A stretch of 64,000 bases of DNA, taken from contig CM000430.1 in NCBI GenBank assembly GCA_000165345.1, positions 1 through 64,000 on the forward strand. The letters run 5' to 3'. The first letter of the stretch is position 1; every line of letters begins with the position of its first letter. The notes beneath the pieces were generated by a model. The model had not been told where the DNA came from, searched no databases, and saw only the letters and a program-made list of their open reading frames with translations. Below are positions 43-28,625 of the stretch, one piece after another. The translations under genes were made by a program, and so were the position numbers.

Positions 43-1380
43 TCATAAAATAGGATACTTTTCTTTAATATTAATATTAATTTTGGTTTGAATACAATCA
101 ATAATCATTTTATTAGTAATAGTTTTAAACCATACATAATTCCAAATTTTATAAGTTTTTTCAAGAATTCTTTTATTATAATTATTAATAAGAATTTGTG
201 ATTTTGATTTATAAATACGAATAGAATTAATATATTCAAACCATTTTTTCCAATATATTTTTAAATTATTGATTTGAAAAATATATGTAGCATGTTGTAA
301 TTGAATTTTATGTTTAGCATAATTACTACTATTTCTTTGAAATACCATTAAAACATAATTAGCTAAAAATAGACAAGATTTTTCCTTTAATATTTTAGAT
401 TGTTTTCGATGTATAAGATATTGTTTAAATGAATGAAAGCCATTCATTAATAATTGTCGTCTTGCTGATAATCCAGAAATAATTAGCATAGTTTTTTCTC
501 TATAACTTTCTTGAGCTAATATATACCATAGATTAAATACAAAAATTTGAATATTATTTTCATATTTAGTTTTAATAAATTGATATTTAAATTTGTCTTG
601 TTTTTTTTTGTAGATAATAATTTTCCATTCTTTAATAATTTGTAACATTTTATTATTTAAAAGATTTATTTGCCATTGTAATATTGTATATCTTTTATTC
701 ATAGAATATTGAAGTAATATAATCCAATTATTGAATAATTTATTTAATTTATTTTTTTCAATAATATAAGATTTTTCTTTCAAAATTTCTTTTCTTTTCT
801 TTTTTAAATGAATATATTCCAAATATCCAAAAATTATTCTTCTTTTTTTGGAGATTTCAAGTTCATTTCTAATAGTTAATAAATTGATATATTCATAATA
901 CCATAGAAAAAAGATTTTTTTTTGTAATTTATCTTTTTGAAATTTTTGAATTTTTCTTTGATTAATAAATTCAGAATACCATAATTGAAGAACTTGTTTA
1001 ATTAGATGAGAAAAATAGAATTTTTTAATATGACAATATATTTTGAATTCATTTTTTTTGTTTAAATAATGATCTTTATACCAATATTGTAAAGAATTTT
1101 TTAATAATTGTTGATTTTTCTTGTTTAAGATATATTCTTCTTTGACAGTATTTAACTTTTGTTTCATAGAGAGTTCAAACCATTCTCTTAAGATTTTTGA
1201 TTTGATTTTTTTCTTTCTATTATTCCCCACATATGATTCCAATTCTAATAATATTTTTTGTTTTAAAGTATATAAATACCATTCTTTAATAATTCTAGAG
1301 ACTGTTTTTTGTGTATGATGTGCGATTGCACTGCTATATTTATCAAAATCTTGGAATTCATTATTAGTTGTATGCACCAT
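43..1380 (-). CDS. Hypothetical Lys/Ile-rich protein with periodic Trp-centred repeats (possible Sfi1-like centrin-binding or IQ-like repeats)
   Basis: Complete 445-aa ORF. Hydrophobic-x-hydrophobic-W-Y/K cores (LQLWYSEF, FFLWYYEY, FNLWYILA, IKEWYLYT, ILREWFEL) recur every ~25-40 aa. No catalytic domain recognised. The coding call rests on ORF length. Confidence 0.5.
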   Translation of the reverse strand: MVHTTNNEFQDFDKYSSAIAHHTQKTVSRIIKEWYLYTLKQKILLELESYVGNNRKKKIKSKILREWFELSMKQKLNTVKEEYILNKKNQQLLKNSLQYWYKDHYLNKKNEFKIYCHIKKFYFSHLIKQVLQLWYSEFINQRKIQKFQKDKLQKKIFFLWYYEYINLLTIRNELEISKKRRIIFGYLEYIHLKKKRKEILKEKSYIIEKNKLNKLFNNWIILLQYSMNKRYTILQWQINLLNNKMLQIIKEWKIIIYKKKQDKFKYQFIKTKYENNIQIFVFNLWYILAQESYREKTMLIISGLSARRQLLMNGFHSFKQYLIHRKQSKILKEKSCLFLANYVLMVFQRNSSNYAKHKIQLQHATYIFQINNLKIYWKKWFEYINSIRIYKSKSQILINNYNKRILEKTYKIWNYVWFKTITNKMIIDCIQTKININIKEKYPIL

Positions 1381-3162: not shown

Positions 3163-5184
3163 ATGACATCATCTGAAGGTCCAGCTATTGGTATTGATTT
3201 AGGTACCACATACTCATGTGTTGGTGTATGGAGAAACGATACTGTAGATATTGTTCCAAACGATCAAGGTAACCGTACAACACCATCATATGTAGCATTT
3301 ACAGAAACTGAGCGTCTTATTGGTGATGCAGCAAAGAACCAAGTTGCTAGAAACCCAGAAAATACAGTTTTTGATGCTAAACGTCTTATTGGTAGAAAGT
3401 TTGATGATCAGGCAGTACAAAGTGATATGACTCACTGGCCATTTAAAGTAGTTAGAGGTCCAAAGGACAAGCCAATCATCAGTGTAAACTACTTAGGTGA
3501 AAAGAAGGAATTCCATGCTGAAGAAATTTCTGCTATGGTTTTACAAAAGATGAAGGAGATCTCTGAAGCATACTTGGGTCGCCAAATTAAGAACGCTGTA
3601 GTTACTGTTCCAGCTTATTTCAATGACTCACAGCGTCAAGCAACAAAGGATGCAGGTGCAATTGCTGGTTTGAATGTAATGAGAATCATTAACGAGCCAA
3701 CTGCAGCTGCTATTGCTTATGGTCTTGATAAGAAAGGAACTGGCGAGAGAAATGTATTGATCTTCGATTTAGGTGGTGGTACTTTTGATGTATCATTATT
3801 AACTATTGAAGATGGTATTTTTGAAGTTAAAGCTACCGCTGGTGATACTCACTTGGGTGGTGAAGATTTTGATAACAGACTCGTAGAATTCTGTGTACAA
3901 GATTTCAAGAGAAAGAATAGAGGTATGGATTTAACCACAAATGCTAGAGCTTTAAGAAGACTCAGAACTCAATGCGAGCGTGCAAAGAGAACTTTGTCAT
4001 CTTCTACTCAAGCTACAATTGAGTTAGATTCACTCTATGAAGGTATTGATTATTCAGTTGCCATCAGTAGAGCTAGATTCGAAGAACTCTGCGCTGATTA
4101 CTTCCGTGCAACTTTAGCTCCAGTTGAGAAAGTACTCAAGGATGCTGGTATGGACAAGAGATCTGTACATGATGTTGTATTGGTTGGTGGTTCTACACGT
4201 ATTCCAAAGGTTCAGGCCTTGATTCAGGAATTCTTTAACGGTAAAGAGCCATGCAAAGCAATCAATCCAGACGAAGCTGTTGCTTATGGTGCTGCTGTAC
4301 AAGCTGCTATCTTAAATGGTGAGCAATCCTCTGCCGTACAGGATCTCTTATTATTGGATGTTGCTCCATTATCACTCGGTTTAGAAACTGCTGGTGGTGT
4401 TATGACCAAGCTTATTGAACGTAATACAACTATCCCAGCAAAGAAGACACAAGTCTTCACTACTTATGCTGATAACCAGAGTGGTGTCTTGATCCAAGTT
4501 TATGAGGGTGAGAGAGCCATGACTAAGGATAACCATCTCCTCGGAAAGTTCCATCTTGATGGTATTCCACCAGCACCAAGAGGTGTACCACAAATTGAAG
4601 TCACCTTTGATATTGATGCTAATGGTATCTTGAATGTGTCTGCTGTTGATAAGAGTACTGGTAAGAGCAGCAAGATCACTATTACTAACGATAAGGGTAG
4701 ATTATCAAAGGACGATATTGAACGTATGGTTAATGATGCTGAGAAATACAAGGGTGAGGATGAGCAGAACAGACTTAAGATTGAGGCTAAGAACTCTTTG
4801 GAGAACTACCTCTATAACATGAGGAACACCATCCAAGAACCAAAGGTTAAGGAAAAGCTTTCTCAATCTGAAATTGATGAGGCTGAGAAGAAGATCAAGG
4901 ATGCTCTTGACTGGCTCGAGCACAACCAAACTGCTGAAAAGGACGAGTTTGAACATCAACAAAAGGAGATTGAAACTCATATGAATCCACTCATGATGAA
5001 GATCTACTCTGCTGAGGGTGGTATGCCAGGTGGAATGCCAGGTGGTATGCCAGGCGGTATGCCAGGTGGAATGCCAGGTGGTATGCCAGGTGGAATGCCA
5101 GGCGGTATGCCAGGTGGTATGCCAGGTGGTATGCCAGGTGGTATGCCAGGATCTAATGGTCCAACTGTTGAAGAGGTCGACTAA
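3163..5184 (+). CDS. HSP70: Cytosolic heat shock protein 70 (HSP70/HSPA family) with C-terminal (GGMP)11 repeat and EEVD tail
   Basis: 673-aa ORF. N-terminal [28 protein letters not shown] and [13 protein letters not shown] motifs. Ends GGMP x11 ... PTVEEVD. GC content visibly higher than neighbours, consistent with strong codon bias. Confidence 0.97.
5018..5149 (+). repeat. In-frame 12-nt tandem repeat (11 units) encoding GGMP inside the hsp70 CDS
   Basis: Units ggtggtatgcca / ggtggaatgcca / ggcggtatgcca counted directly. Frame-shifted reading gives the spurious ORF 5018..5227. Confidence 0.95.
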
Positions 5185-6253
5185 TTATTTTAGTCACCAA
5201 AAAAACTCACTCAAAATGGAAAGTTAAGAACTATTTACACACTTTCAATTTCTAGTTATTTTTTACCAAAATAAGAAGAAAAGCACACTCTACCTTTAGG
5301 CTATATTTTCCATTCTCTAGCCTAGACTCCCTTATATGCGAGTTGGCAATATTTCACCAGATTTACCGCCATAAATTTGGCATTTTTGGCTTATTGATAG
5401 TCATTACTATTATCAATACGAGTTCTCGAAAAGAGAAAGGCCAGATATCTGGATAGTTTGGAACAAACTATGTTCTCTAGTTTATTTGAGAATTCTCGTA
5501 CGTAGTTTAGCCTATTGGTCAGTGTGATATTGAACAAACTGTTAATGGAGATTAGTCATTTAAGTGAATTTTGTCACGCACTTTACTCCGTGCCTCTCTT
5601 TCTTACTCTCATTATGTTCTTAATTTGATAAGATTCTACTTTAATTGCAGTCGTAAATAGTTTTATATTCGATTAAATTGCAATATAAATATATGGAGAC
5701 GGAAACAATCGGAAATCTATTCTTCATTAGTTGTTAATATGGAAAGTTTAATGCTAAAAATGAAATTTGCCGCCAAAACATGCATTTTAATAGGCAAAAG
5801 GTAATAATTACCATTGAATTAATATTTAAATGCGTGTGTGTATATGTTGTGGGGTATAAATTAATTAGCTTTGAAATAAAAAAGAAAAGCAAGTATGATC
5901 GTGGGAAATAATTTACTATAATTTGATAATATTTTTTTAAGAAACTCTTCTCTCAATTTTATTGAATAAATAATATTTATCATCAATAACTTTTTTATAA
6001 TTTTCCGCTATTATGTATTACTTTATCAAATTTTATAATATAATTTATTGTATTAGGCGCCAAAAACCATTTTTAAAATGAAATTAATTAGTGTAAGATT
6101 CAACAGGACGAATTAAAAAAGATCACAGATTTTTAGTCTCTATATAGTAAATAAATAAACTAGGTGACCATTTCAAGGAAGTGCAGCTTGAGTAAAATTA
6201 TTGAATAATTAGAAATTACTCAAAAAAAAAGCACTAGTTATAAAATTGAAATA

Positions 6254-7765
6254 ATGAGAATTTTGTTAATTTTACTACTATTTCTTTCTATCAAGACAAA
6301 CTTAATCCATTTTTGTTTAGCAGGTAATTTCTTAGTTGTGAATAATGCAGCCAATGGCAGTGAACATGAAATTCTTCATTCCAATTTTTTGAAAGAATTT
6401 GGAAATGATTATAATAAACAAGTGGAAGAAATATCACGAGTAGAATTAAACAGATTTAAAGGACAGACATATTTGGATTATACAGGTTCTGGATTATACC
6501 AAAAATCGCAATTGGAAGAGATTTATACAGATTTCATTAATAATGCATATGGAAATGCTCATAGTAGAAATCCTTCAGCTGAACTTACTAATAAAAAATT
6601 ATCAGAAGCTAGAGAACTTTTATTTAACTTCTTTAATATAAGTAAAGATACCCATACAATTATATTTACTGGAGGAGCAACTGGTGGGTTAAAACTTATA
6701 GGCGAAGATTTTCCATGGACAAAACAAAGTAAATTTTACTATACTAGAGTAAATCATAATTCAGTATTAGGAATAAGAGAATATGCTGTTTCAAAAGGAG
6801 CTGAATTTCGTGCATTATCTTTTAATGATATTGAAAAAATATTAGCTCAAAGAGAAAAGGATTATAAAGAAAAAAAGGATGGAAAAAGTGAAAATTTATG
6901 TTTATTCGCATTTCCAGGTAAAGATAACTTTTCTGGGGAAAAGTACCCACTAAAATGGATAAAACAGGTACAAAAATATGGATTATCAGATGATTGTGAT
7001 TGGAAGGTTATTTTAGATGCTGCAGCAATGGTACCTACTGAAAAATTAGATATTTCAGAAAATTCTGCTGATTTTGTTGTTATTTCTTTTTATAAAATGT
7101 TTGGATACCCTACTGGACTTGGTGCATTAATTTCAAAAACTGATCAAGTTAATAAATTTAATAAACTCTATTTTGGAGGTGGAACTGTTGTTATGGCTTC
7201 TTGTGATTCTAGATGGTGTAAAATGCGTGAAAATCCTAGTGAAAAATTTGAAGACGGTACCGTTTCTTTTTTAAGTATTGTATCACTTAAATATGGTTTA
7301 AATAAGCTTCAATCTATTGGTATGGATAAAATTAATAAACATGTTTCATCTTTGACATTATTTACTTTTAATCTTTTATCTCAATTAAGACACTTTTCTG
7401 GTGGTAATGTTGTACATTTTTATGGAAGATTTGCTTCTCCTCCAACTGGAGGTATTATTAATTTCAATTTACTTAAACCTGATGGAACTTTTGTTCATTA
7501 TTTTAAAGTTGAACAGATGGCATCAGATAGTAATATTCATCTAAGAACTGGATGTTTTTGTAATCCTGGTGCATGTCAAGATTATTTAGGCCTTACTCTT
7601 GAAGAAATTCAAATTACTAGTGAAGTTAAGAATAGTTGTAGTGATCCGGCAGCAGGATTAGCTGGTAAACCTCTTGGGTCAATTAGGATCAGTTTTGGAT
7701 ATTTGTCAACGTTTAAAGATGTTTTGGCTATTTATGATTTTATTAAAACAAATTTTGTACACTAA
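6254..7765 (+). CDS. Molybdenum-cofactor-sulfurase-like (MOCOS/ABA3 N-terminal NifS-type, aminotransferase class V) domain protein with N-terminal signal peptide/anchor; no MOSC domain
   Basis: 503-aa ORF. Hydrophobic N-terminus MRILLILLLFLSIKTNL. FLKEFGNDY...YLDYTGSGLY, NAHSRNPS, IFTGGATGGLKLIGEDFPW, NHNSVLGIREYA, LFAFPGKDNFSGEKYPL, PLP-Lys motif ISFYKMFGYPTGLGALIS, persulfide-Cys motif RTGCFCNPGAC, C-terminal IRISFGYLSTFKD. These are collinear with the ABA3/MOCOS N-terminal domain as I recall it. Confidence 0.8.
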   Translation: MRILLILLLFLSIKTNLIHFCLAGNFLVVNNAANGSEHEILHSNFLKEFGNDYNKQVEEISRVELNRFKGQTYLDYTGSGLYQKSQLEEIYTDFINNAYGNAHSRNPSAELTNKKLSEARELLFNFFNISKDTHTIIFTGGATGGLKLIGEDFPWTKQSKFYYTRVNHNSVLGIREYAVSKGAEFRALSFNDIEKILAQREKDYKEKKDGKSENLCLFAFPGKDNFSGEKYPLKWIKQVQKYGLSDDCDWKVILDAAAMVPTEKLDISENSADFVVISFYKMFGYPTGLGALISKTDQVNKFNKLYFGGGTVVMASCDSRWCKMRENPSEKFEDGTVSFLSIVSLKYGLNKLQSIGMDKINKHVSSLTLFTFNLLSQLRHFSGGNVVHFYGRFASPPTGGIINFNLLKPDGTFVHYFKVEQMASDSNIHLRTGCFCNPGACQDYLGLTLEEIQITSEVKNSCSDPAAGLAGKPLGSIRISFGYLSTFKDVLAIYDFIKTNFVH

Positions 7766-7843
7766 TGGGTGTAATATAGTGGGGCTATGAAAAAAAAATA
7801 TTGGGATATTTATAAATATAAATTTAAAAAAAAAACTATGGTT

Positions 7844-9346
7844 TTATCTAATTACAAAATTTTTTAAATCGTGATTAGTTTTGCAATCAGAATTTGTCTC
7901 TTCAATCCAAGAGAACGTATTACATTTTTGTTGGTCAGATTTTGGACAACTCCAATATAGTCTTCCTTTATTTACACCTGACTTTGTTACCTTCTTTTTT
8001 ACACAGGGGATTCCATGTTTACATTGGGGATGATTTAAAGAGATTTTATTATTTATCTTAAAATCATGGCTTTTAATAGTTTTATTAATTTGACCTTTTA
8101 CTTCAACTTTACTTAAAGTCAGAAACTGACTAATTGTACTTTGTCTTTGCTTACATTGAGGCAAGTACTTAGAACAAATGCTAGGGGGCTTCCTTTTTTC
8201 ATTATTATACAAAGATTCAAATTCTCCCGTCTTTAAAATTAGTAAAATAGGACAGTGATCAGAACCATATATGTGATCAAGTATCTCACACTTTATAGAT
8301 TCTGATATTAATCCTTTTGAAATAAGAAATAAATCTATTCTAGTTCCTTGATTTCTAATTCTAGACTGATTCATTTGGCTCCAACATGTGTATTTGTTAT
8401 TAGTTCTTGGATAATAATGTCTATATGCATCAACCAAACAATATCCTTTAATCATCTCAATATTCATCCTTCTCATATGCATATATGCTTTAGCAAAGGA
8501 GGAAGTTTCAAAGATTTCCTTAGGGCTTGTTAGCATACATGGCGCCAATTTGCAATTGTCGAGTATCCCACAATCATCATAACAATCAATTTTTTCCAAT
8601 ATAATGTTAAAGTCTCCCGCCAAAATGACATTTCTTTTGCATGCATTTTTAAGTACATGTAATAATAAATTAAGATATTCTTGGAATGCAAGTCTATATT
8701 TAAATCTCTCAGGATCAACAGTTTCTGATAGTTCAATTCGTGTTTCATTTTGATTTTGAATTTCTTTTAACATAACTTCTTCTTTTTCCTTTTCTTCCTT
8801 TTCTTCAGCTTTGCTTCTTAGTAAAGGAACATATAAATTTAGCAATACGAATTGTTTATGATCAGTAATTACACATCTACCTTCTCCATCTATTTCAGAT
8901 ATAGATATCCCATATTTATCTTTAATTTTAGAAATATCGGATTCAATTTCTTGCAATTTTTCTGTTTGAATCATTTGGTTTATGTCAAATTGACATGGAT
9001 TTGATTCTAGCCAAGAAAACCCCTTTGCCGCCTCAATTACCATAGTTTTTTTTGAACAATAAGTAGCAACTCCGCTATATCTTTTATTATTTTCAGCAAG
9101 TGAAAAATATGATTCATAATTTCCAGGACATCCTATTGAGTTGTTTAAATCATCTCCAAAGCTCATTTTACATTCTTGAAGGCATATTATGTCTGGGCTC
9201 TTCACATTTAGATTAGCACTGGTAACTTCATCGTTTACGCATATGTTATCAAGTAATTTAGAAAAATTTGATTCTGTGTAACCTCTTCTTTTTGTGAATG
9301 ATATTAAACCATTTACATTGAAAGAAATTATTGACAATTCCCTCAT
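7844..9346 (-). CDS. APE2: AP endonuclease 2-like (ExoIII/EEP family) with C-terminal GRF-type zinc finger
   Basis: 500-aa ORF. ISFNVNGL, DIICLQE, GDFNI, RIDLFLIS, GSDHCPI EEP-family motifs. Acidic EEKEEKEKEE insert. C-terminal CKHGIPC...GRLYWSCP...CNTFSW matches the zf-GRF pattern typical of APEX2. Confidence 0.8.
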   Translation of the reverse strand: MRELSIISFNVNGLISFTKRRGYTESNFSKLLDNICVNDEVTSANLNVKSPDIICLQECKMSFGDDLNNSIGCPGNYESYFSLAENNKRYSGVATYCSKKTMVIEAAKGFSWLESNPCQFDINQMIQTEKLQEIESDISKIKDKYGISISEIDGEGRCVITDHKQFVLLNLYVPLLRSKAEEKEEKEKEEVMLKEIQNQNETRIELSETVDPERFKYRLAFQEYLNLLLHVLKNACKRNVILAGDFNIILEKIDCYDDCGILDNCKLAPCMLTSPKEIFETSSFAKAYMHMRRMNIEMIKGYCLVDAYRHYYPRTNNKYTCWSQMNQSRIRNQGTRIDLFLISKGLISESIKCEILDHIYGSDHCPILLILKTGEFESLYNNEKRKPPSICSKYLPQCKQRQSTISQFLTLSKVEVKGQINKTIKSHDFKINNKISLNHPQCKHGIPCVKKKVTKSGVNKGRLYWSCPKSDQQKCNTFSWIEETNSDCKTNHDLKNFVIR

Positions 9347-24194: not shown

Positions 24195-27100
24195 TTATTT
24201 TAAATCACTTAGTTCATTCCAAATATAATTATTAGGCAATTCTCCAAATTGTTTATATATAACTTTATGAAGCTGGTTATTTTTAATAATCCAAAAAATG
24301 TCACAATTATCGAAAATACCAATATCATGAGTAATAATTAAAGAAGGACAATGTTTGAAGGTGGAATTAATGATATTATGAATAGATGGAGTTTCAAATG
24401 TTTTATTATTATATGAAAAAGTAACATTATATGGAGGTTCATCAATAAGTAATAATTGATATTTTAATGGTGATATGATAAATTGAATAAAAGATAGGTA
24501 CCTAATTTGAGAATTTGATAATATTATTGTATTATGTATGGATTGATTTCTTTGGAAATTATGATCAAAATTATATTCATTAGAATCTTGTGAAATTATA
24601 ATAGTTTCTAACTTTAAAGGAAGTAAGAGAATGAAATCCAATAATTTAATCTTATTTAAAGCTTCTAGTATAAGATGATCAGAATATTGAGAAAAAGGGT
24701 CTAATAAAGATCTAATTGTATAACCATCCATAAAAAGATTTTCTTGAGGAAGTAATGCAATAAGTTGATTTTTATTCTTAATATTATTAATTTTAACATT
24801 ATTAAGTAAAATAGTTCCATTTGTTTGTAAATGTAAACCCATAATTGAATTAATAAGAGATGATTTACCTGATCCAGTTCTTCCAATAATACCAATTATA
24901 TTTCCTGGATATGCTTTTAAAATACCATTAATTAATAATAAAGTTTCAAATTTTAAGTTATCAATAGATTCTTTATTAAATTCTCTTGAAATAGAGAAAT
25001 AATTCAAAGTAGAAATTTGTAAATCTTTGATAAATAAACCTTGTTGATTATAAGAATCTTGTAGACTATGATTTTCTGGAAAAATAGGTACAATATTAAC
25101 AAGAGTACTAAAATGATTCATATGTTCGATATCATTTGAATTAAATTGAGGAGGTATTTGTTCTTGATTATTGTTATATTCTTCAATATAAGAATTTTGC
25201 TCATTTTTTTGTATATATTCATTCAATAATGTAAAAGTTTCAATGTAATTTTTAATCCTTTCAACTGAACACATTTCTTTCTCTAATTGTACGAATTTAT
25301 ATATTAAAGAAGAAATAGATTCTGCAATAGAAAGGAAATAATATATACAGATAAATGCTGAACTTGATTGACTTTGAAATCCTAACTGAATTAATATAAT
25401 ATTTAATATAATCCCAACAGGAGTCATTGCAATATTCATCCAAAACCCTGCCCATTGAGTTGAAGCAAGCTGTATATATCTAACCTTAATATATAAATCA
25501 ATATTTTCACTAGCTTGACTTCTAAGCATTTCTTGTTTTCTAAGCATTGCAATTGTTAAACCTCCAAGCTGTGTTCCAGAAAATATTCCACATATTGAGG
25601 AAAAAAGAGATATTGAAAACCTCTGATATTCCCTATAAGATGAAATAAATTTAAGGCATATCGGCTTTATAATAAGCATTATCCATATAAGAAAAAATGG
25701 TGTAAAATAAGGAAATGTATATACAATAAATATTGTCTGACCTATGATTGTCAATACTGGTGCTAAACTGGAAATAATTGACTTCACAATACATGTATCT
25801 ATAATCAACATATCACCCCCAATCCTATTCAATATAATATGTATTGGTATTATATTTGGTATTTTTATTAATAAAGAATCGAATATACTTTTATAAATTT
25901 CATTGGCGCCAAAAGTGCATGCAATAGCCTCTAAAATAAAGACCAGCCCGCCAAAAGTCAAACTGAGACCAGTAGAAAGAGAATATAATAGAAGAAATCT
26001 TTTAAGGGTGTGTGCATGCGTTGAATTTCCAGTAAAAAGCAATTCACTAAGTCTTTCAAGTGCTGATTTGGAAAGTAATATAAACATGATAATAATAATG
26101 ATTGGCCTTCCAACTTTAGAGAGATACCAATTATAGCTATTTAGGGAAATATGTCCTTTATTAACAACTTTTTCTTTAAATGAATTAATAATAGAGGAAT
26201 TATTATTAGAAATAAGTTTGTCAGATTCTGTGTTTTGGCGGGAAATTTCTGGATAATGATTAAAATTCATTGTATAAGAATTATTTTGAACATTATAGAT
26301 TGGATCAGAGTGTGTATGATTAGGGTTTTTTGGGGAGAAGATCATATGATGATGGTCATTATTAACAAGAGTATCAATACGAGTATCTGTAAAAATAGAT
26401 TCAAAATCATTAATGAGAACTTGTTGAGGGATTTTGAAAGAATTTGGTGAATAATTAAAATGATCAATGCATAAATAATGAAAGGAGTTGTATAGATTCA
26501 ATGAGGGTTTAGAATCTAGAGTAGAGGAGTATTTAAGGAAGTTGGAGAGTGATCTTTGGTCAATTGTGATGATTACTGAAGAATTTGAGAGAATTCCATT
26601 GCTATTAAAGAGATTGTAAAAGAGTTTATTAGCAACAAAATGGTCCAAATTGGAGAATATATCATCAAAAATAAACAAAGGACAATATTCTGATTTAGAA
26701 TTGGAGTCCATATTAGAGAAAAAGAAGTAAAGAGTTCTTGCAATACATATTCTGGTTTTTTGTCCTTTACTTAAAATACTCCCTCCTTCGTCAATTTGCT
26801 TTAAATCTCCCTCTTTCCATTGTTGAAAGTCTGTTACTAAGTTGCAGCATTCAATAATTCTCATATAGCGATCTTCTATATACTCTGATCCAAATAATAT
26901 TATTGATCTTACAGTACCAGAAGGTATCCATGGTATTTGTGAAACATATCCTATTGGTAGATTATTTAAAAGATAATAGTTATAGTAAAAATGCCCATAT
27001 TCATGTTCATTCATATTATTCAGAAGAAGATTTTCATTTAATAGTATTTTTTGAATGAATGTAGTTTTTCCAGATCCTGATTCTCCAATCACAAAAACCT

Positions 27101-28625
27101 TTTCTCCTTTTTTAATTTGCACTGATAAATCCTTGAAATGATCATCAGTAATAACTGATCTCAAGTCTACCTCATCTGCTAACAGTTTTGTATTCTCGTT
27201 TTTATCCTCATAGCTTTTGTCTTGCTCATTTTTGTCATTATTAGCTATGAATTCATTCGATACCTTGTTTAGTTCAATAAATCTCGATCCTTTAAAATCA
27301 AGAATAACGTCCTTGTCACACTCTTTTTTATTCTTCAAGTTCTTAAATTCAGCTTTAAACCACTTTTCATCAATCTCAGTGTTCTTTAAAAACTCTTGAA
27401 ATCTTCTAAAGGAAATAAATCCCTCTATCATATTAGAAGGAAGCCCTCTAATGGAAGAAACTGTGAAAAATATGTTTAATACTGTAACTCCTGTTGGGCC
27501 AAGACTCTTTAAAGATTTATTCTCAAATTTTGAATAATCATTTATCACTTTTGATATATAAGATACAAAAAGAACCAATTGAGAAATTGCTTGTACATGA
27601 TAATCTAAAAAGGTACCGATCTGAATTAGTATTAATCTTAATCTATTATAAAATGTCTCCATTCTTCTAATCTCAAAGATCTGATTCTTAATCTTAGTTT
27701 CTTGTCCAAGCAACCATATTTGAGTAATCTGTCTAAGCATTTCATGAGTTTTTGAAATTCTTATATCACGATACCTCATAAAAGGAGCTTTAAATAACGA
27801 ACCAATAATCTGAAGAAAAAAACCCAATGAGAAAACTATTAAAAATGTTAATACAGCACTTGTTGCCACTGATCCTACATGTTCTTTTAATAAAATCCAA
27901 GTTAAAAGAAATCTTATTGGAAATATTAATAAATCTAAAGTTGATGTTATTAAATTTGGAAAACTTGAACAATCTGCCAAAACTATATTCATTATATTCG
28001 AAGAACTTGCATTCTTTAATCTCTCAGTATCCTTTAAACCTTTCTCATTTTTTATCCTCCACTTCTCACTATTATATGAATAAAACAATCTTGAATAAGA
28101 TAACCTCAATAGAAAAGCTTCAATACTAAAAGCTAATTTCCCACTATGAAATCTATTTTGAGATTCAAATATAAGGCGGGCCAAATATATCATTATTGCT
28201 TTCACTCCAAAACTTGCATTCTCTCTAGGAGTCTCAGATTTCATAAAACTGGTTAAATAACTTGAAAATATAAATGATACAAAAACATTTCCTATCTTTA
28301 ATAAAGTTACTCCTAAAATTGCTTGCCATTTTGCTTCAATAATTCTCCTTAACAGATTTTCTGAGTTTATCACGCCATTATTCAATAAACTCTCAGTATT
28401 AATATATGATTCATTTACATACTCATCCAGATATTCACCTTCTAATTCTAAAATTGTCTTCTTTTTAAAAAGTATCCTTTCACAAAAATATGGAGTTACC
28501 CAAAAGAATGAAATCTTTTGAAATATTTTTTTTGTTTTCTTAAAAAATCCATTATTGCAATACTTTGCCTCTTCTAAACATGAAGATTCTTTCATATTTA
28601 ACTGTGTGAGTATTATATTCTTCAT
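24195..28625 (-). CDS. ABC transporter, ABCC/MRP-like, array member 3 (most divergent paralogue)
   Basis: 1476 aa. NBD1 GESGSGKTTF, variant signature LSKGQKTRICIARTLY, IFDDIF. NBD2 GRTGSGKSSL, LSNSQIRYLSF, LIDEPP, H-loop ITHD. Asn-rich inserts. Confidence 0.88.
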   Translation of the reverse strand: MKNIILTQLNMKESSCLEEAKYCNNGFFKKTKKIFQKISFFWVTPYFCERILFKKKTILELEGEYLDEYVNESYINTESLLNNGVINSENLLRRIIEAKWQAILGVTLLKIGNVFVSFIFSSYLTSFMKSETPRENASFGVKAIMIYLARLIFESQNRFHSGKLAFSIEAFLLRLSYSRLFYSYNSEKWRIKNEKGLKDTERLKNASSSNIMNIVLADCSSFPNLITSTLDLLIFPIRFLLTWILLKEHVGSVATSAVLTFLIVFSLGFFLQIIGSLFKAPFMRYRDIRISKTHEMLRQITQIWLLGQETKIKNQIFEIRRMETFYNRLRLILIQIGTFLDYHVQAISQLVLFVSYISKVINDYSKFENKSLKSLGPTGVTVLNIFFTVSSIRGLPSNMIEGFISFRRFQEFLKNTEIDEKWFKAEFKNLKNKKECDKDVILDFKGSRFIELNKVSNEFIANNDKNEQDKSYEDKNENTKLLADEVDLRSVITDDHFKDLSVQIKKGEKVFVIGESGSGKTTFIQKILLNENLLLNNMNEHEYGHFYYNYYLLNNLPIGYVSQIPWIPSGTVRSIILFGSEYIEDRYMRIIECCNLVTDFQQWKEGDLKQIDEGGSILSKGQKTRICIARTLYFFFSNMDSNSKSEYCPLFIFDDIFSNLDHFVANKLFYNLFNSNGILSNSSVIITIDQRSLSNFLKYSSTLDSKPSLNLYNSFHYLCIDHFNYSPNSFKIPQQVLINDFESIFTDTRIDTLVNNDHHHMIFSPKNPNHTHSDPIYNVQNNSYTMNFNHYPEISRQNTESDKLISNNNSSIINSFKEKVVNKGHISLNSYNWYLSKVGRPIIIIIMFILLSKSALERLSELLFTGNSTHAHTLKRFLLLYSLSTGLSLTFGGLVFILEAIACTFGANEIYKSIFDSLLIKIPNIIPIHIILNRIGGDMLIIDTCIVKSIISSLAPVLTIIGQTIFIVYTFPYFTPFFLIWIMLIIKPICLKFISSYREYQRFSISLFSSICGIFSGTQLGGLTIAMLRKQEMLRSQASENIDLYIKVRYIQLASTQWAGFWMNIAMTPVGIILNIILIQLGFQSQSSSAFICIYYFLSIAESISSLIYKFVQLEKEMCSVERIKNYIETFTLLNEYIQKNEQNSYIEEYNNNQEQIPPQFNSNDIEHMNHFSTLVNIVPIFPENHSLQDSYNQQGLFIKDLQISTLNYFSISREFNKESIDNLKFETLLLINGILKAYPGNIIGIIGRTGSGKSSLINSIMGLHLQTNGTILLNNVKINNIKNKNQLIALLPQENLFMDGYTIRSLLDPFSQYSDHLILEALNKIKLLDFILLLPLKLETIIISQDSNEYNFDHNFQRNQSIHNTIILSNSQIRYLSFIQFIISPLKYQLLLIDEPPYNVTFSYNNKTFETPSIHNIINSTFKHCPSLIITHDIGIFDNCDIFWIIKNNQLHKVIYKQFGELPNNYIWNELSDLK

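What the first reader, a model, noticed from the sequence alone, without database searches (positions are those of the whole stretch)
6254..7765. Stand-alone MOCOS/ABA3-type cysteine-desulfurase domain with a signal peptide and no MOSC domain
The ORF is collinear with the N-terminal NifS-like domain of molybdenum cofactor sulfurase. The PLP lysine (SFYKMFGYPTGLGAL) and the persulfide cysteine (TGCFCNPGAC) are both present, so the domain looks catalytically competent. The ORF stops 78 bp before the neighbouring convergent gene, so there is no room for the C-terminal MOSC domain that normally receives the sulfur. It also starts with a hydrophobic signal/anchor (MRILLILLLFLSIKTNL) that canonical cytosolic MOCOS lacks. 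In a parasite not known to use molybdoenzymes this hints at a repurposed sulfur-mobilising enzyme, possibly secretory or organellar. That last point is my inference.
Basis: partly seen in the sequence, partly recalled or inferred. Interest (0 to 1): 0.55.

Follow-up and report, generated by a model that had tools for sequence, protein, structure and literature searches.

The report
Secretory-pathway MOCOS-like cysteine desulfurase, no MOSC
This Cryptosporidium parvum gene encodes an apparently active sulfur-mobilising (cysteine desulfurase-type) enzyme that lacks the molybdenum-cofactor domain and carries a signal peptide or membrane anchor, and it belongs to a widespread, uncharacterised protist family whose Toxoplasma member sits in the endoplasmic reticulum, an unusual place for such chemistry.

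Summary
ORF 6254-7765 (+) encodes a 503-aa protein identical to C. parvum Iowa II XP_625374.1. Its only Pfam domain is Aminotran_5. It is 42-44% identical to the NifS-like half of plant ABA3/MOCOS, far closer than to SufS. The PLP lysine (K281), the persulfide cysteine (C436) and the PLP- and substrate-binding residues are invariant. No MOSC domain exists in the ORF or anywhere in the window, and a published survey finds no MOSC, Moco synthesis or molybdoenzyme in C. parvum.

It is not a truncated MOCOS. Bacteria hold hundreds of stand-alone homologs with the same RTGCFCNPG loop. Eukaryotic stand-alone lineages (Apicomplexa, chromerids, Blastocystis, Entamoeba, metamonads and others) fall outside the MOSC-bearing clade.

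The hydrophobic N-terminus is a family trait: 62 of 106 N-terminally complete stand-alone proteins have one, against 3 of 89 MOSC-bearing proteins. Flanking charges predict a lumenal catalytic domain. The Toxoplasma ortholog has a predicted signal peptide, maps to the ER by hyperLOPIT, and was captured with ER protein disulfide isomerases. A Giardia protein of the same name localises to the ER, but I did not verify its orthology.

Best reading: an ER/secretory-pathway cysteine desulfurase unrelated to Moco, possibly handing sulfur to thioredoxin-fold proteins. The gene is annotated but uncharacterised.

The parts
6254..7765 (+). Complete single-exon CDS (503 aa plus stop) of the stand-alone MOCOS-type NifS-like protein. 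It is identical to C. parvum Iowa II XP_625374.1 / EAK87393.1.
6254..6322 (+). N-terminal signal peptide or signal anchor, residues 1-23 (MRILLILLLFLSIKTNLIHFCLA). It has one positive residue before the hydrophobic core and a possible -3/-1 cleavage site CLA|G. Whether it is cleaved was not determined.
   Evidence: Hydropathy is. Across Cryptosporidium species the first 40 residues keep their hydrophobicity but are only 6-60% identical, against 61-93% for the core.
6386..6469 (+). Conserved pre-domain helix region (FLKEFGNDYNKQVEEI...). It is shared with MOCOS (FLKEFGxDYGY) and with the bacterial homologs (FLxxYPxY).
6470..7726 (+). Class-V aminotransferase / cysteine desulfurase fold, residues 73-491.
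   Evidence: Pfam PF00266, E 6.5e-38. AlphaFold2 model with pLDDT 90.2. Foldseek best matches are SufS structures, with TM about 0.85 normalised to the target.
7094..7096 (+). Codon of K281, the PLP Schiff-base lysine in the SFYK motif.
7202..7219 (+). CDSRWC: two cysteines (C317, C322) flanking the turn of a predicted beta-hairpin. They are conserved in most anchored eukaryotic stand-alone members and absent from MOSC-bearing, thioredoxin-fused and bacterial relatives.
7544..7576 (+). Catalytic loop RTGCFCNPGAC. C436 (7559-7561) aligns with the SufS persulfide cysteine. R431 is invariant. C441 is specific to eukaryotes.
7685..7687 (+). Codon of R478, an invariant arginine that aligns with a conserved SufS arginine (RASF motif). 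Its role in binding the substrate carboxylate is from memory.
7766..7843 (.). 78-bp intergenic spacer to the convergent gene. There is no room for a further exon.
7844..9346 (-). Convergent neighbour, an ExoIII/APE-type endonuclease with a GRF zinc finger. It is not part of the feature and only bounds it.

Best explanation
The gene encodes a catalytically competent PLP-dependent cysteine desulfurase of the MOCOS/ABA3 sequence type. It never had, or long ago parted from, a MOSC domain, and it has nothing to do with molybdenum cofactor. Its N-terminal hydrophobic segment inserts it co-translationally into the ER, with the catalytic domain on the lumenal side, either cleaved and soluble or held as a type II anchor. 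There it would bind L-cysteine on the PLP at K281, with D255, H168 and R478 holding cofactor and substrate. C436 would then take the sulfur as a persulfide, releasing alanine. The sulfane sulfur would next be resolved by a dithiol. Candidates are the clade-specific hairpin pair C317/C322 or a thioredoxin-fold protein such as an ER protein disulfide isomerase. The products would be H2S or a persulfide plus a disulfide. Shown here: the family assignment, the intact active site, the absence of MOSC, conservation of the anchor, and the predicted orientation. Taken from the literature on the Toxoplasma ortholog: ER location and capture with PDIs. Inferred: that the C. parvum protein behaves like its orthologs. 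Speculative: the sulfur acceptor and the physiological output.
For: Family and active site. Plant MOCOS are hit at E about 1e-110 with 42-44% identity. K281, C436, R431, D255, H168 and R478 are invariant in eukaryotic and bacterial homologs. C436 aligns with the SufS catalytic Cys. The model is confident (pLDDT 90.2) and has a SufS-type fold. The Toxoplasma ortholog has dN/dS 0.138, which indicates purifying selection (column key).

No Moco role. There is no MOSC in the ORF or the window. C. parvum, C. hominis and C. muris have no Moco synthesis, no MOSC proteins and no molybdoproteins in a published survey.

Targeting. 62 of 106 N-terminally complete stand-alone proteins have a hydrophobic 16-mer (KD >= 2.0) upstream of the core, against 3 of 89 MOSC-bearing proteins. 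The charge difference across that segment is negative in 53, zero in 8 and positive in 1, which by the charge-difference rule puts the N-terminus in the cytosol and the enzyme in the lumen. Within Cryptosporidium the N-terminus diverges in sequence but stays hydrophobic.

Experimental data on homologs. TGME49_300350 is 50% identical to the query over residues 35-502 and falls in the same clade. SignalP 5 calls it 'SP', and hyperLOPIT TAGM-MCMC assigns it to 'ER 2' with p 0.9995. It co-purifies with ER TgPDI8. It ranks 7th among proteins enriched with TgPDIA3 after treatment with the cysteine cross-linker DVSF, next to ERO1 and trx-domain proteins. Giardia GL50803_14200, named 'molybdenum cofactor sulfurase' and predicted to have one TM, localises to the ER when HA-tagged.

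Thioredoxin link. Green-algal relatives carry a fused thioredoxin domain with a WCxGC site.
Against: No experiment was found on the C. parvum protein itself.

No signal-peptide predictor was run. The charge difference for the C. parvum segment is only -2, and K14 interrupts the hydrophobic core.

There is no KDEL/HDEL-type C-terminus in any of the homolog sequences I read, so retention in the ER rather than onward secretion is unexplained.

The hyperLOPIT TAGM-MAP method left the Toxoplasma protein unassigned as an outlier. The DVSF and IP lists also contain cytosolic and nuclear proteins, so they are not specific. PDI capture is equally expected for any cysteine-containing ER client.

Orthology of the Giardia protein rests on its name only.

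The hairpin cysteines are not universal in anchored members: Eimeria has one, and Preaxostyla have His/Cys at other positions.

The Toxoplasma gene is dispensable in culture (CRISPR score +0.45).

No sulfur acceptor or client is known in any ER lumen.
Confidence: 0.6

Rival explanations
1. The protein is anchored in the ER membrane but faces the cytosol. There it would supply sulfur to cytosolic pathways such as tRNA 2-thiolation or cytosolic Fe-S assembly, which is useful in organisms with reduced mitochondria.
For: The family is prominent in protists with mitosomes or hydrogenosomes, or with no mitochondrion at all: Cryptosporidium, Entamoeba, Blastocystis, Monocercomonoides and Carpediemonas-like organisms. 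A few MOSC-bearing relatives have an N-terminal TM with a P450-like charge pattern that would leave the enzyme in the cytosol. Known sulfur acceptors are cytosolic or organellar.
Against: Flanking charges predict the opposite orientation in 53 of 62 anchored stand-alone proteins, and only one is positive. The Toxoplasma ortholog is called a cleavable signal peptide by SignalP 5 and was captured with lumenal PDIs. The family also occurs in aerobes with normal mitochondria, such as Nannochloropsis, Cyanophora, Vitrella and Toxoplasma.
Confidence: 0.12
2. It is a secretory-pathway PLP enzyme that uses the same fold for a different C-S or C-Se lyase reaction. Candidates are selenocysteine lyase, cystine lyase producing cysteine persulfide, cysteine sulfinate desulfinase, or cleavage of a cysteine conjugate. 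It would not act on free L-cysteine as a desulfurase.
For: The databases name it 'cysteine desulfurase/selenocysteine lyase-like'. NCBIfam gives partial sub-threshold hits to SclA, CsdA and C-DES-like models. The oxidising ER holds cystine rather than cysteine (general knowledge). No sequence feature tested here tells the substrates apart.
Against: The persulfide-accepting cysteine and its whole loop are invariant from bacteria to eukaryotes. Cystine lyases of the C-DES type do not need this cysteine (from memory). From memory, not checked here: Cryptosporidium is not known to make selenoproteins, and ABA3's homologous domain is a demonstrated cysteine desulfurase.
Confidence: 0.15
3. The protein passes through the ER and is secreted, or sent to secretory organelles or the parasite-host interface. 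There it would act on host or lumenal cysteine, for example to produce H2S or scavenge sulfur. It would not be an ER resident.
For: It has a signal-peptide-like N-terminus and no ER-retention motif at the C-terminus. Cryptosporidium exports many signal-peptide proteins (general knowledge). The family is common in gut-dwelling protists.
Against: The Toxoplasma ortholog and the same-named Giardia protein are in the ER, not in secretory organelles. Many family members have a long cytosolic tail followed by a TM, which is a non-cleavable type II anchor. The family also exists in free-living algae and amoebae.
Confidence: 0.1
4. It is a decaying remnant of MOCOS, or a pseudoenzyme kept for a non-catalytic role.
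For: The organism has no Moco. The Toxoplasma ortholog is dispensable in culture. Mammalian Plasmodium species did not appear among the homologs, only avian ones.
Against: Every catalytic residue is invariant over eukaryote-wide and bacterial divergence. The core is 61-93% identical across Cryptosporidium species. dN/dS is 0.138 in Toxoplasma, where the protein was detected with 7-13 peptides in each of three proteomic experiments. Stand-alone bacterial homologs show that the architecture is not a truncation.
Confidence: 0.04

Closest known systems
Molybdenum cofactor sulfurase (Arabidopsis ABA3, human MOCOS, Aspergillus HxB), N-terminal NifS-like domain
   Same: It is the closest characterised relative by sequence: 42-44% identity over about 460 residues. 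The two share the pre-domain motif FLKEFGxDYGY, the SFYK lysine, the RTGCFCNPGAC loop with the persulfide cysteine, and the eukaryote-specific C441 and C462.
   Different: It has no MOSC_N/MOSC domains and ends exactly where the NifS-like domain ends. It has an N-terminal signal peptide or anchor instead of the roughly 7-residue cytosolic N-terminus. It has an extra cysteine pair in a beta-hairpin. It lies outside the MOSC-bearing clade in the tree. The host organism has no Moco or xanthine-oxidase-family clients.
Type II cysteine desulfurases SufS / CsdA (with partners SufE, SufU, CsdE)
   Same: It has the same fold (Foldseek TM about 0.85, target-normalised), the same PLP-binding residues, and a catalytic cysteine at the aligned position.
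   Different: Identity is only about 20%. The loop is RTGCFCNPGAC rather than RxGHHCA. The NCBIfam SufS score is 108 against a cut-off of 475. No SufE- or SufU-type partner is known, and the location is secretory rather than cytosolic or plastidial.
Uncharacterised bacterial stand-alone homologs (Chloroflexota/Anaerolineae, Acidobacteriota, Gemmatimonadota and others)
   Same: They are stand-alone proteins of 465-530 aa, 36-42% identical, with the same RTGCFCNPG loop, the same N-terminal pre-domain motif and the same C-terminal end. There is no MOSC within 6 kb.
   Different: They have no signal peptide or anchor, no hairpin cysteines and no C441/C462. They have no conserved gene neighbour that would suggest a partner. 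No curated NCBIfam model covers them.
Green-algal thioredoxin-NifS-like fusion proteins (Dunaliella, Volvox and relatives)
   Same: They have the same NifS-like domain ending at the same C-terminus, no MOSC, and they cluster among the stand-alone eukaryotic lineages.
   Different: Upstream of the NifS-like domain they carry a thioredoxin domain (WCxGC) behind transit-peptide-like leaders, instead of a hydrophobic anchor. They lack the C317/C322 pair and have His and Cys at other hairpin positions.

Membership tests
Molybdenum cofactor sulfurase (MOCOS/ABA3, EC 2.8.1.9) | N-terminal NifS-like class-V PLP domain with the PLP lysine and the persulfide cysteine | tested here: met
   PF00266 at E 6.5e-38. 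K281 and C436 are invariant. Identity to plant MOCOS is 42-44%.
Molybdenum cofactor sulfurase (MOCOS/ABA3, EC 2.8.1.9) | C-terminal MOSC_N (PF03476) plus MOSC (PF03473) domain that binds Moco and receives the sulfur | tested here: not met
   The ORF ends at the end of the NifS-like domain. No MOSC signal appears in any frame of the window. A genome-wide survey lists no MOSC protein in C. parvum.
Molybdenum cofactor sulfurase (MOCOS/ABA3, EC 2.8.1.9) | The organism makes Moco and has xanthine-oxidase-family clients | tested here: not met
   This cannot be tested in a 64-kb window. The published comparative genomics shows '-' for C. parvum in every column, which I read as Moco synthesis, SO, XO and MOSC, and 0 molybdoproteins (PMC6147048 Additional file 1).
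Molybdenum cofactor sulfurase (MOCOS/ABA3, EC 2.8.1.9) | Cytosolic protein without a targeting signal | tested here: not met
   There is a hydrophobic N-terminal segment. By contrast, 86 of 89 MOSC-bearing proteins have none.
SufS/CsdA type II cysteine desulfurases | Sequence membership (NCBIfam TIGR01979 / NF006791 above cut-off; RxGHHCA loop) | tested here: not met
   TIGR01979 scores 108 bits against a cut-off of 475. The loop is RTGCFCNPGAC.
SufS/CsdA type II cysteine desulfurases | Fold and catalytic geometry (PLP Lys, Asp to the pyridine N, stacking His, substrate Arg, Cys on a short loop) | tested here: met
   Foldseek TM is about 0.85 (target-normalised) to many SufS structures. The Lys, Asp, Arg and Cys positions align directly with SufS residues, and H168 lies in the aligned HH motif. 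The roles assigned to these residues come from general knowledge of SufS.
SufS/CsdA type II cysteine desulfurases | Dedicated sulfur acceptor partner (SufE, SufU or CsdE) | not tested
   No search for SufE/SufU-like genes was possible beyond the window. None is expected in the ER lumen.
Anchored stand-alone MOCOS-like clade of protists (unnamed; defined here) | NifS-like domain of the MOCOS sequence type that ends at the domain boundary, with no MOSC | tested here: met
   72 of the first 120 homologs share this architecture, and the query ends at the same alignment column.
Anchored stand-alone MOCOS-like clade of protists (unnamed; defined here) | N-terminal signal peptide or type II anchor with N-in charge bias | tested here: met
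   The query's 16-mer has KD 2.41 and a charge difference of -2. The family scores 62 of 106 anchored, with 53 of the 62 negative.
Anchored stand-alone MOCOS-like clade of protists (unnamed; defined here) | ER localisation of the protein | not testable with these tools
   Only data from homologs exist: Toxoplasma by hyperLOPIT and PDI capture, and a same-named Giardia protein by HA tag. None exists for C. parvum.
Anchored stand-alone MOCOS-like clade of protists (unnamed; defined here) | Monophyly to the exclusion of MOSC-bearing MOCOS | tested here: inconclusive
   All 126 MOSC-bearing sequences fall in one clade of 136, and the stand-alone lineages lie outside it. However, they form an unresolved grade in neighbour-joining trees with weak backbone support.

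The most novel reading that the evidence does not exclude
The family is an oxygen-independent source of oxidising equivalents, or of persulfide/H2S, in the ER lumen. The desulfurase would turn cysteine into alanine plus an enzyme persulfide. A dithiol would then resolve the persulfide to H2S and itself become a disulfide. The dithiol could be the hairpin C317/C322 pair acting as a shuttle, an ER protein disulfide isomerase, or the fused thioredoxin domain in green algae. Cysteine desulfuration would thus drive disulfide formation without Ero1 and O2. This would explain why the gene is kept in so many anaerobic and microaerophilic protists, and why the Toxoplasma ortholog is captured with PDIs.
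Probability: 0.12. Interest if true: 0.85.

Novelty: new variant of a known kind. Interest (0 to 1): 0.55.

Why it matters
Cysteine desulfurases are known as cytosolic, mitochondrial or plastid enzymes that feed Fe-S clusters, Moco, thio-tRNAs and vitamins. Reviews describe such systems as virtually absent from the secretory pathway. If this family is what it appears to be, it opens an unexplored piece of ER chemistry (persulfide, H2S or disulfide generation) and poses a clear question: what accepts the sulfur?

The family would be conserved, catalytically intact and lumen-facing, and it is found from Cryptosporidium, Toxoplasma and Entamoeba to algae. The question is directly testable in genetically tractable parasites.

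The work also corrects the routine annotation 'molybdenum cofactor sulfurase' in organisms that have no molybdenum metabolism. It further shows that MOCOS probably arose by fusing a pre-existing stand-alone enzyme to a MOSC domain.

The practical impact for Cryptosporidium is uncertain, because the Toxoplasma ortholog is dispensable in culture.

Tried and rejected
1. Searching for a MOSC domain in the window by tblastn and by a profile built from 30-odd plant MOSC regions found nothing.

2. Bacterial gene neighbourhoods were examined to find a partner. I clustered 522 neighbour ORFs from 80 loci. The most recurrent cluster, of unidentified function, occurs in only 12 loci, so there is no conserved operon partner.

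3. NCBIfam naming of the query and of three bacterial homologs gave only sub-threshold hits.

4. The PDB holds no MOCOS NifS-domain structure. The best matches are SufS enzymes. A profile that included MOSC-bearing sequences simply found mARC, which confirms what the plant C-termini are.

5. Literature searches for the C. parvum gene found nothing. 'cgd2_30', my guess at the gene id, has no full-text hit. The Cryptosporidium spatial-proteomics paper and a sporozoite proteome supplement were not held. Two multi-term searches were badly designed and returned noise. A search on Ero1 in Giardia gave nothing usable, so the claim that some anaerobes lack Ero1 remains unverified.

6. I could not retrieve the Giardia GL50803_14200 sequence, so its orthology is not verified.

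7. Neighbour-joining trees rooted on partial SufS fragments or on bacterial homologs do not resolve whether the stand-alone eukaryotic lineages form one clade. No maximum-likelihood program was available.

8. A mitosome-targeting presequence was considered and rejected. The N-terminus is uniformly hydrophobic with a single arginine, not amphipathic and basic.

9. A downstream spliced exon was considered and rejected. Only 78 bp separate the ORF from a convergent gene, and the homologs end at the same residue.

10. The model gives no coordinates, so the distance from the hairpin cysteines to C436 could not be measured.
Full report
**What is there.** The window is Cryptosporidium parvum DNA. The 503-aa product of ORF 6254-7765 (+) is identical to C. 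parvum Iowa II XP_625374.1 / EAK87393.1, which is annotated 'cysteine desulfurase/selenocysteine lyase-like PLP dependent transferase superfamily'. The C. hominis TU502 copy is called 'molybdenum cofactor sulfurase'. Upstream lies HSP70 with GGMP repeats (3163-5184). Downstream, 78 bp away and convergent, lies an ExoIII/APE-type nuclease with a GRF zinc finger (7844-9346). The next in-frame methionine is residue 259, so the protein must start at M1 and the hydrophobic N-terminus belongs to it.

**Family.** Pfam finds a single domain, Aminotran_5 (residues 73-491, E 6.5e-38). A search of 5.8 billion proteins returns three groups:
- Cryptosporidium orthologs at 59-90% identity.
- A long list of PF00266-only proteins at 40-56% identity, from Vitrella, Chromera, gregarines, coccidia, avian Plasmodium, Blastocystis, Entamoeba, Pelomyxa, Mastigamoeba, Paratrimastix, Monocercomonoides, Stygiella and Carpediemonas-like organisms.
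- Plant ABA3/MOCOS carrying MOSC_N and MOSC domains, at 42-44% identity and E about 1e-110.

The best solved structures are SufS enzymes, at only E about 1e-23 and about 20% identity. NCBIfam SufS scores 108 bits against a cut-off of 475.

**Active site.** In alignments of 121 sequences, K281 (SFYK) and C436 (RTGCFCNPGAC) are invariant in all stand-alone, thioredoxin-fused and MOSC-bearing proteins. So are R120, T139, H168, D255, R431 and R478 in a 49-sequence alignment. All of H168, D255, K281, R431, C434, C436 and R478 are also invariant in 20 bacterial homologs. A family profile aligns RtGcfCN with the SufS loop RAGHHCA, which puts C436 on the SufS catalytic cysteine. It aligns vRvSlG with SufS ARASF, which puts R478 on a conserved SufS arginine; from memory, this is the residue that binds the substrate carboxylate. 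An AlphaFold2 model is confident (mean pLDDT 90.2, pTM 0.87), and its nearest solved folds are SufS structures (TM about 0.85 normalised to the target). The codons were checked directly. The enzyme looks catalytically competent.

**No MOSC, no molybdenum.** The ORF ends at the same alignment column as 72 other stand-alone proteins. MOSC-bearing proteins continue for about 320 more residues. Neither tblastn with plant MOSC regions nor a MOSC profile finds anything in any frame of the 64-kb window (best E 0.27 and 0.36). A published comparative-genomics table shows '-' for C. parvum, C. hominis and C. muris in every column and 0 molybdoproteins. I read the columns as Mo trait, transporters, Moco synthesis, SO, XO and MOSC families. 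The same holds for Giardia, Spironucleus and four Entamoeba species. Toxoplasma has Moco and one sulfite-oxidase-family protein but no XO-family client and no MOSC protein (PMC6147048).

**It is not a truncated MOCOS.** A scan of one genome per prokaryotic species found at least 599 loci encoding relatives. The best 80 come mostly from Chloroflexota/Anaerolineae, Acidobacteriota, Gemmatimonadota and others. They encode stand-alone proteins of 465-530 aa, 36-42% identical to the query, with the same RTGCFCNPG loop, the same pre-domain motif and the same C-terminal end. None has a MOSC domain within 6 kb. No curated NCBIfam model covers them, and no neighbour gene is conserved.

In neighbour-joining trees rooted on these bacteria:
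- The bacteria/eukaryote split is found in 100 of 100 bootstraps.
- All 126 MOSC-bearing sequences sit in one clade of 136. In 58 of 100 bootstraps the smallest clade holding all of them had at most 12 other sequences.
- The stand-alone eukaryotic lineages lie outside that clade as an unresolved grade.

The stand-alone architecture is therefore old, and MOCOS most simply arose by adding MOSC to it. The family is also present in free-living and phototrophic protists: Nannochloropsis, Cyanophora, Hanusia, Chromera, Vitrella and Anaeramoeba. It is not a parasite invention.

**The N-terminal hydrophobic segment is a family trait.** Nearly every N-terminally complete stand-alone protein has a hydrophobic stretch upstream of the conserved core. 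In some it sits at the very N-terminus and looks like a signal peptide: Cryptosporidium, Entamoeba, Blastocystis, a gregarine, Porospora, Toxoplasma. In others it follows a charged tail of 20-250 residues and looks like a type II anchor: Monocercomonoides, Anaeramoeba, Cantina, Cyanophora and a gregarine transcriptome.

Counting over the first hits plus 134 cluster representatives, 62 of 106 stand-alone proteins have a 16-mer with mean hydropathy of at least 2.0, against 3 of 89 MOSC-bearing proteins. The nominal Fisher p is 4e-18, but the sequences are related, so this is not a true probability. The charge difference across the segment (C-flank minus N-flank) is negative in 53, zero in 8 and positive in 1. 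By the charge-difference rule this places the N-terminus in the cytosol and the enzyme in the lumen. The three anchored MOSC proteins have zero or positive values. Within Cryptosporidium the first 40 residues are only 6-60% identical while the core is 61-93% identical, yet hydrophobicity is kept, as is typical of signal sequences. I could not run a signal-peptide predictor. A plausible cleavage site is CLA|G after residue 23, but an uncleaved anchor is equally possible.

**Experimental data on homologs.** The Toxoplasma ortholog TGME49_300350 has 736 aa, the same name and length as the homolog retrieved here, and is 50% identical to the query over residues 35-502. The published data on it are:
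- SignalP 5 calls it 'SP'.
- It was detected in all three hyperLOPIT experiments.
- TAGM-MCMC assigns it to 'ER 2' with probability 0.9995. TAGM-MAP also gives ER 2 but flags it as an outlier.
- Its dN/dS is 0.138.
- Its CRISPR fitness score is +0.45, that is, dispensable in culture (PMC7670262 supplements).
- It co-purified with the ER protein disulfide isomerase TgPDI8 (PMC11389393).
- It ranks seventh among proteins enriched with TgPDIA3 after treatment with divinyl sulfone, which cross-links cysteines. Its log2 fold change is 10.2, beside ERO1 and trx-domain proteins (PMC13170237).

In Giardia, GL50803_14200 ('molybdenum cofactor sulfurase', one predicted TM) localised to the ER when HA-tagged (PMC3044749). 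I could not obtain that sequence, so its orthology rests on its name and on Giardia having no Mo metabolism. These lists are not fully specific, because cytosolic proteins appear in them too, and any cysteine-bearing ER client can be trapped on a PDI.

**Clade-specific cysteines and the thioredoxin link.**
- C317 and C322 (CDSRWC) flank the turn of a predicted beta-hairpin, with strands at 312-316 and 321-324.
- They are conserved in 60 and 58 of 72 stand-alone proteins.
- They are Ala/Val in MOSC-bearing proteins, Ser/His in the algal fusions and Val/Tyr-His in bacteria.
- The pattern varies. Eimeria has one Cys. Blastocystis has C322 plus another Cys seven residues on, and Entamoeba has both hairpin cysteines plus that extra one. 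Preaxostyla have His and Cys.
- Green-algal relatives lack the anchor and carry a thioredoxin domain with a WCxGC site upstream of the NifS-like domain.

Each lineage thus pairs the desulfurase with a different thiol or acceptor module: MOSC, thioredoxin, or hairpin cysteines in an ER full of PDIs. The hairpin pair could be a structural disulfide suited to the oxidising ER, or a sulfur or disulfide relay.

**Mechanism proposed.** The steps would be:
1. Co-translational ER insertion through the N-terminal segment, leaving a lumenal catalytic domain.
2. L-cysteine bound as an external aldimine on the PLP at K281.
3. Sulfur abstracted by C436 to give a persulfide plus alanine.
4. The persulfide resolved by a dithiol (the hairpin pair or a thioredoxin-fold protein), giving H2S or a persulfide plus a disulfide.

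Steps 2 and 3 follow from conservation and from what is established for ABA3 and SufS (general knowledge). Step 1 is supported by the family-wide sequence statistics and by data from homologs. Step 4 is speculative. The most novel reading the data allow is that this is an oxygen-independent route to ER disulfides or lumenal sulfide. It is chemically the same reaction as the standard DTT-coupled desulfurase assay. I give it about 12%.

**Rivals.**
- A cytosol-facing anchored enzyme feeding cytosolic sulfur pathways. The charge rule and the Toxoplasma data argue against it.
- A different C-S or C-Se lyase activity. This is not excluded by sequence.
- A secreted rather than ER-resident enzyme. 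It fits the lack of a retention motif but not the Toxoplasma and Giardia data.
- A decaying relic. Invariant catalytic residues and purifying selection argue against it.

**Verdict.** The gene is already annotated, so the locus itself is not new. What is not described, as far as my searches reached, is that it belongs to a broad family of apparently ER-lumenal, catalytically intact MOCOS-type desulfurases of unknown function, with a large bacterial sister family. That makes it a moderately interesting, directly testable lead rather than a discovery.

Noticed in passing
window 12522-34059 (-): Four tandem ORFs of about 1480-1620 aa, all ABC transporters (ABC_tran twice each). The third (24195-28625) shows no ABC_membrane Pfam hit at E <= 0.001, unlike its neighbours.
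   Followed up: partly
window 43-1380 (-), and 1-2000 in general: A 445-aa ORF with no Pfam match lies in a stretch of only 19% G+C at the start of the window. It may be subtelomeric sequence of chromosome 2.
   Followed up: no
window about 5768-5780 and 6057-6066: TTGCCGCCAAAA and GGCGCCAAAA lie in the 1-kb intergenic region upstream of the target ORF. They resemble the E2F-like upstream motif described for C. parvum genes. This is from memory and was not tested for enrichment.
   Followed up: no
homologs P0059, P0139 (Plasmodium gallinaceum, P. relictum): Among Plasmodium, only the avian species appeared as homologs (393 aa, annotated 'aminotransferase, putative', with no N-terminal extension in the gene model). 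This suggests the gene was lost in mammalian malaria parasites.
   Followed up: no
homologs P0069, P0071, P0073, P0074, P0079, P0084, P0096, P0103 (green algae): These carry a thioredoxin domain (WC[KHDE]GC) fused upstream of the same NifS-like domain, behind transit-peptide-like leaders. They have no hydrophobic anchor and no C317/C322 pair.
   Followed up: partly
homologs P0158 (Dictyostelium purpureum), P0244 (Rigifila), P0237 (Aplanochytrium), P0152 (Chlorokybus): These are full-length MOSC-bearing MOCOS proteins with an N-terminal transmembrane-like segment. For the two that were scored (P0152, P0158) the flanking charges are zero or positive, so the enzyme would not be lumenal. In P0158 and P0244, basic residues follow the TM, as in P450 anchors. 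Some canonical MOCOS may therefore be membrane-tethered, or the gene models may be wrong.
   Followed up: partly
loci L001-L080 (bacterial genomes, mostly MAGs; e.g. L077 Leptolinea sp. HRD-7 5941-7392): A large bacterial family of stand-alone proteins carries the MOCOS-type RTGCFCNPG loop. No curated family model covers it, and it has no conserved gene neighbour.
   Followed up: partly
Toxoplasma gene ids TGGT1_300350 and TGGT1_300380 (PMC13170237 Table 1): The Toxoplasma ortholog and the putative ERO1 have gene numbers three apart, and both appear in the same PDI cross-linking list. The chromosomal proximity may be a coincidence.
   Followed up: no
Spironucleus paper PMC6397501, Fe-S protein table: The Spironucleus protein named 'molybdenum cofactor sulfurase' (listed with Giardia gene 14200) is tabulated as a 2Fe-2S protein and as mildly induced by oxygen (log2 1.6-1.7). 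I did not trace the basis for the cluster assignment. In eukaryotic family members C436, C441 and C462 are invariant and C434 nearly so.
   Followed up: no
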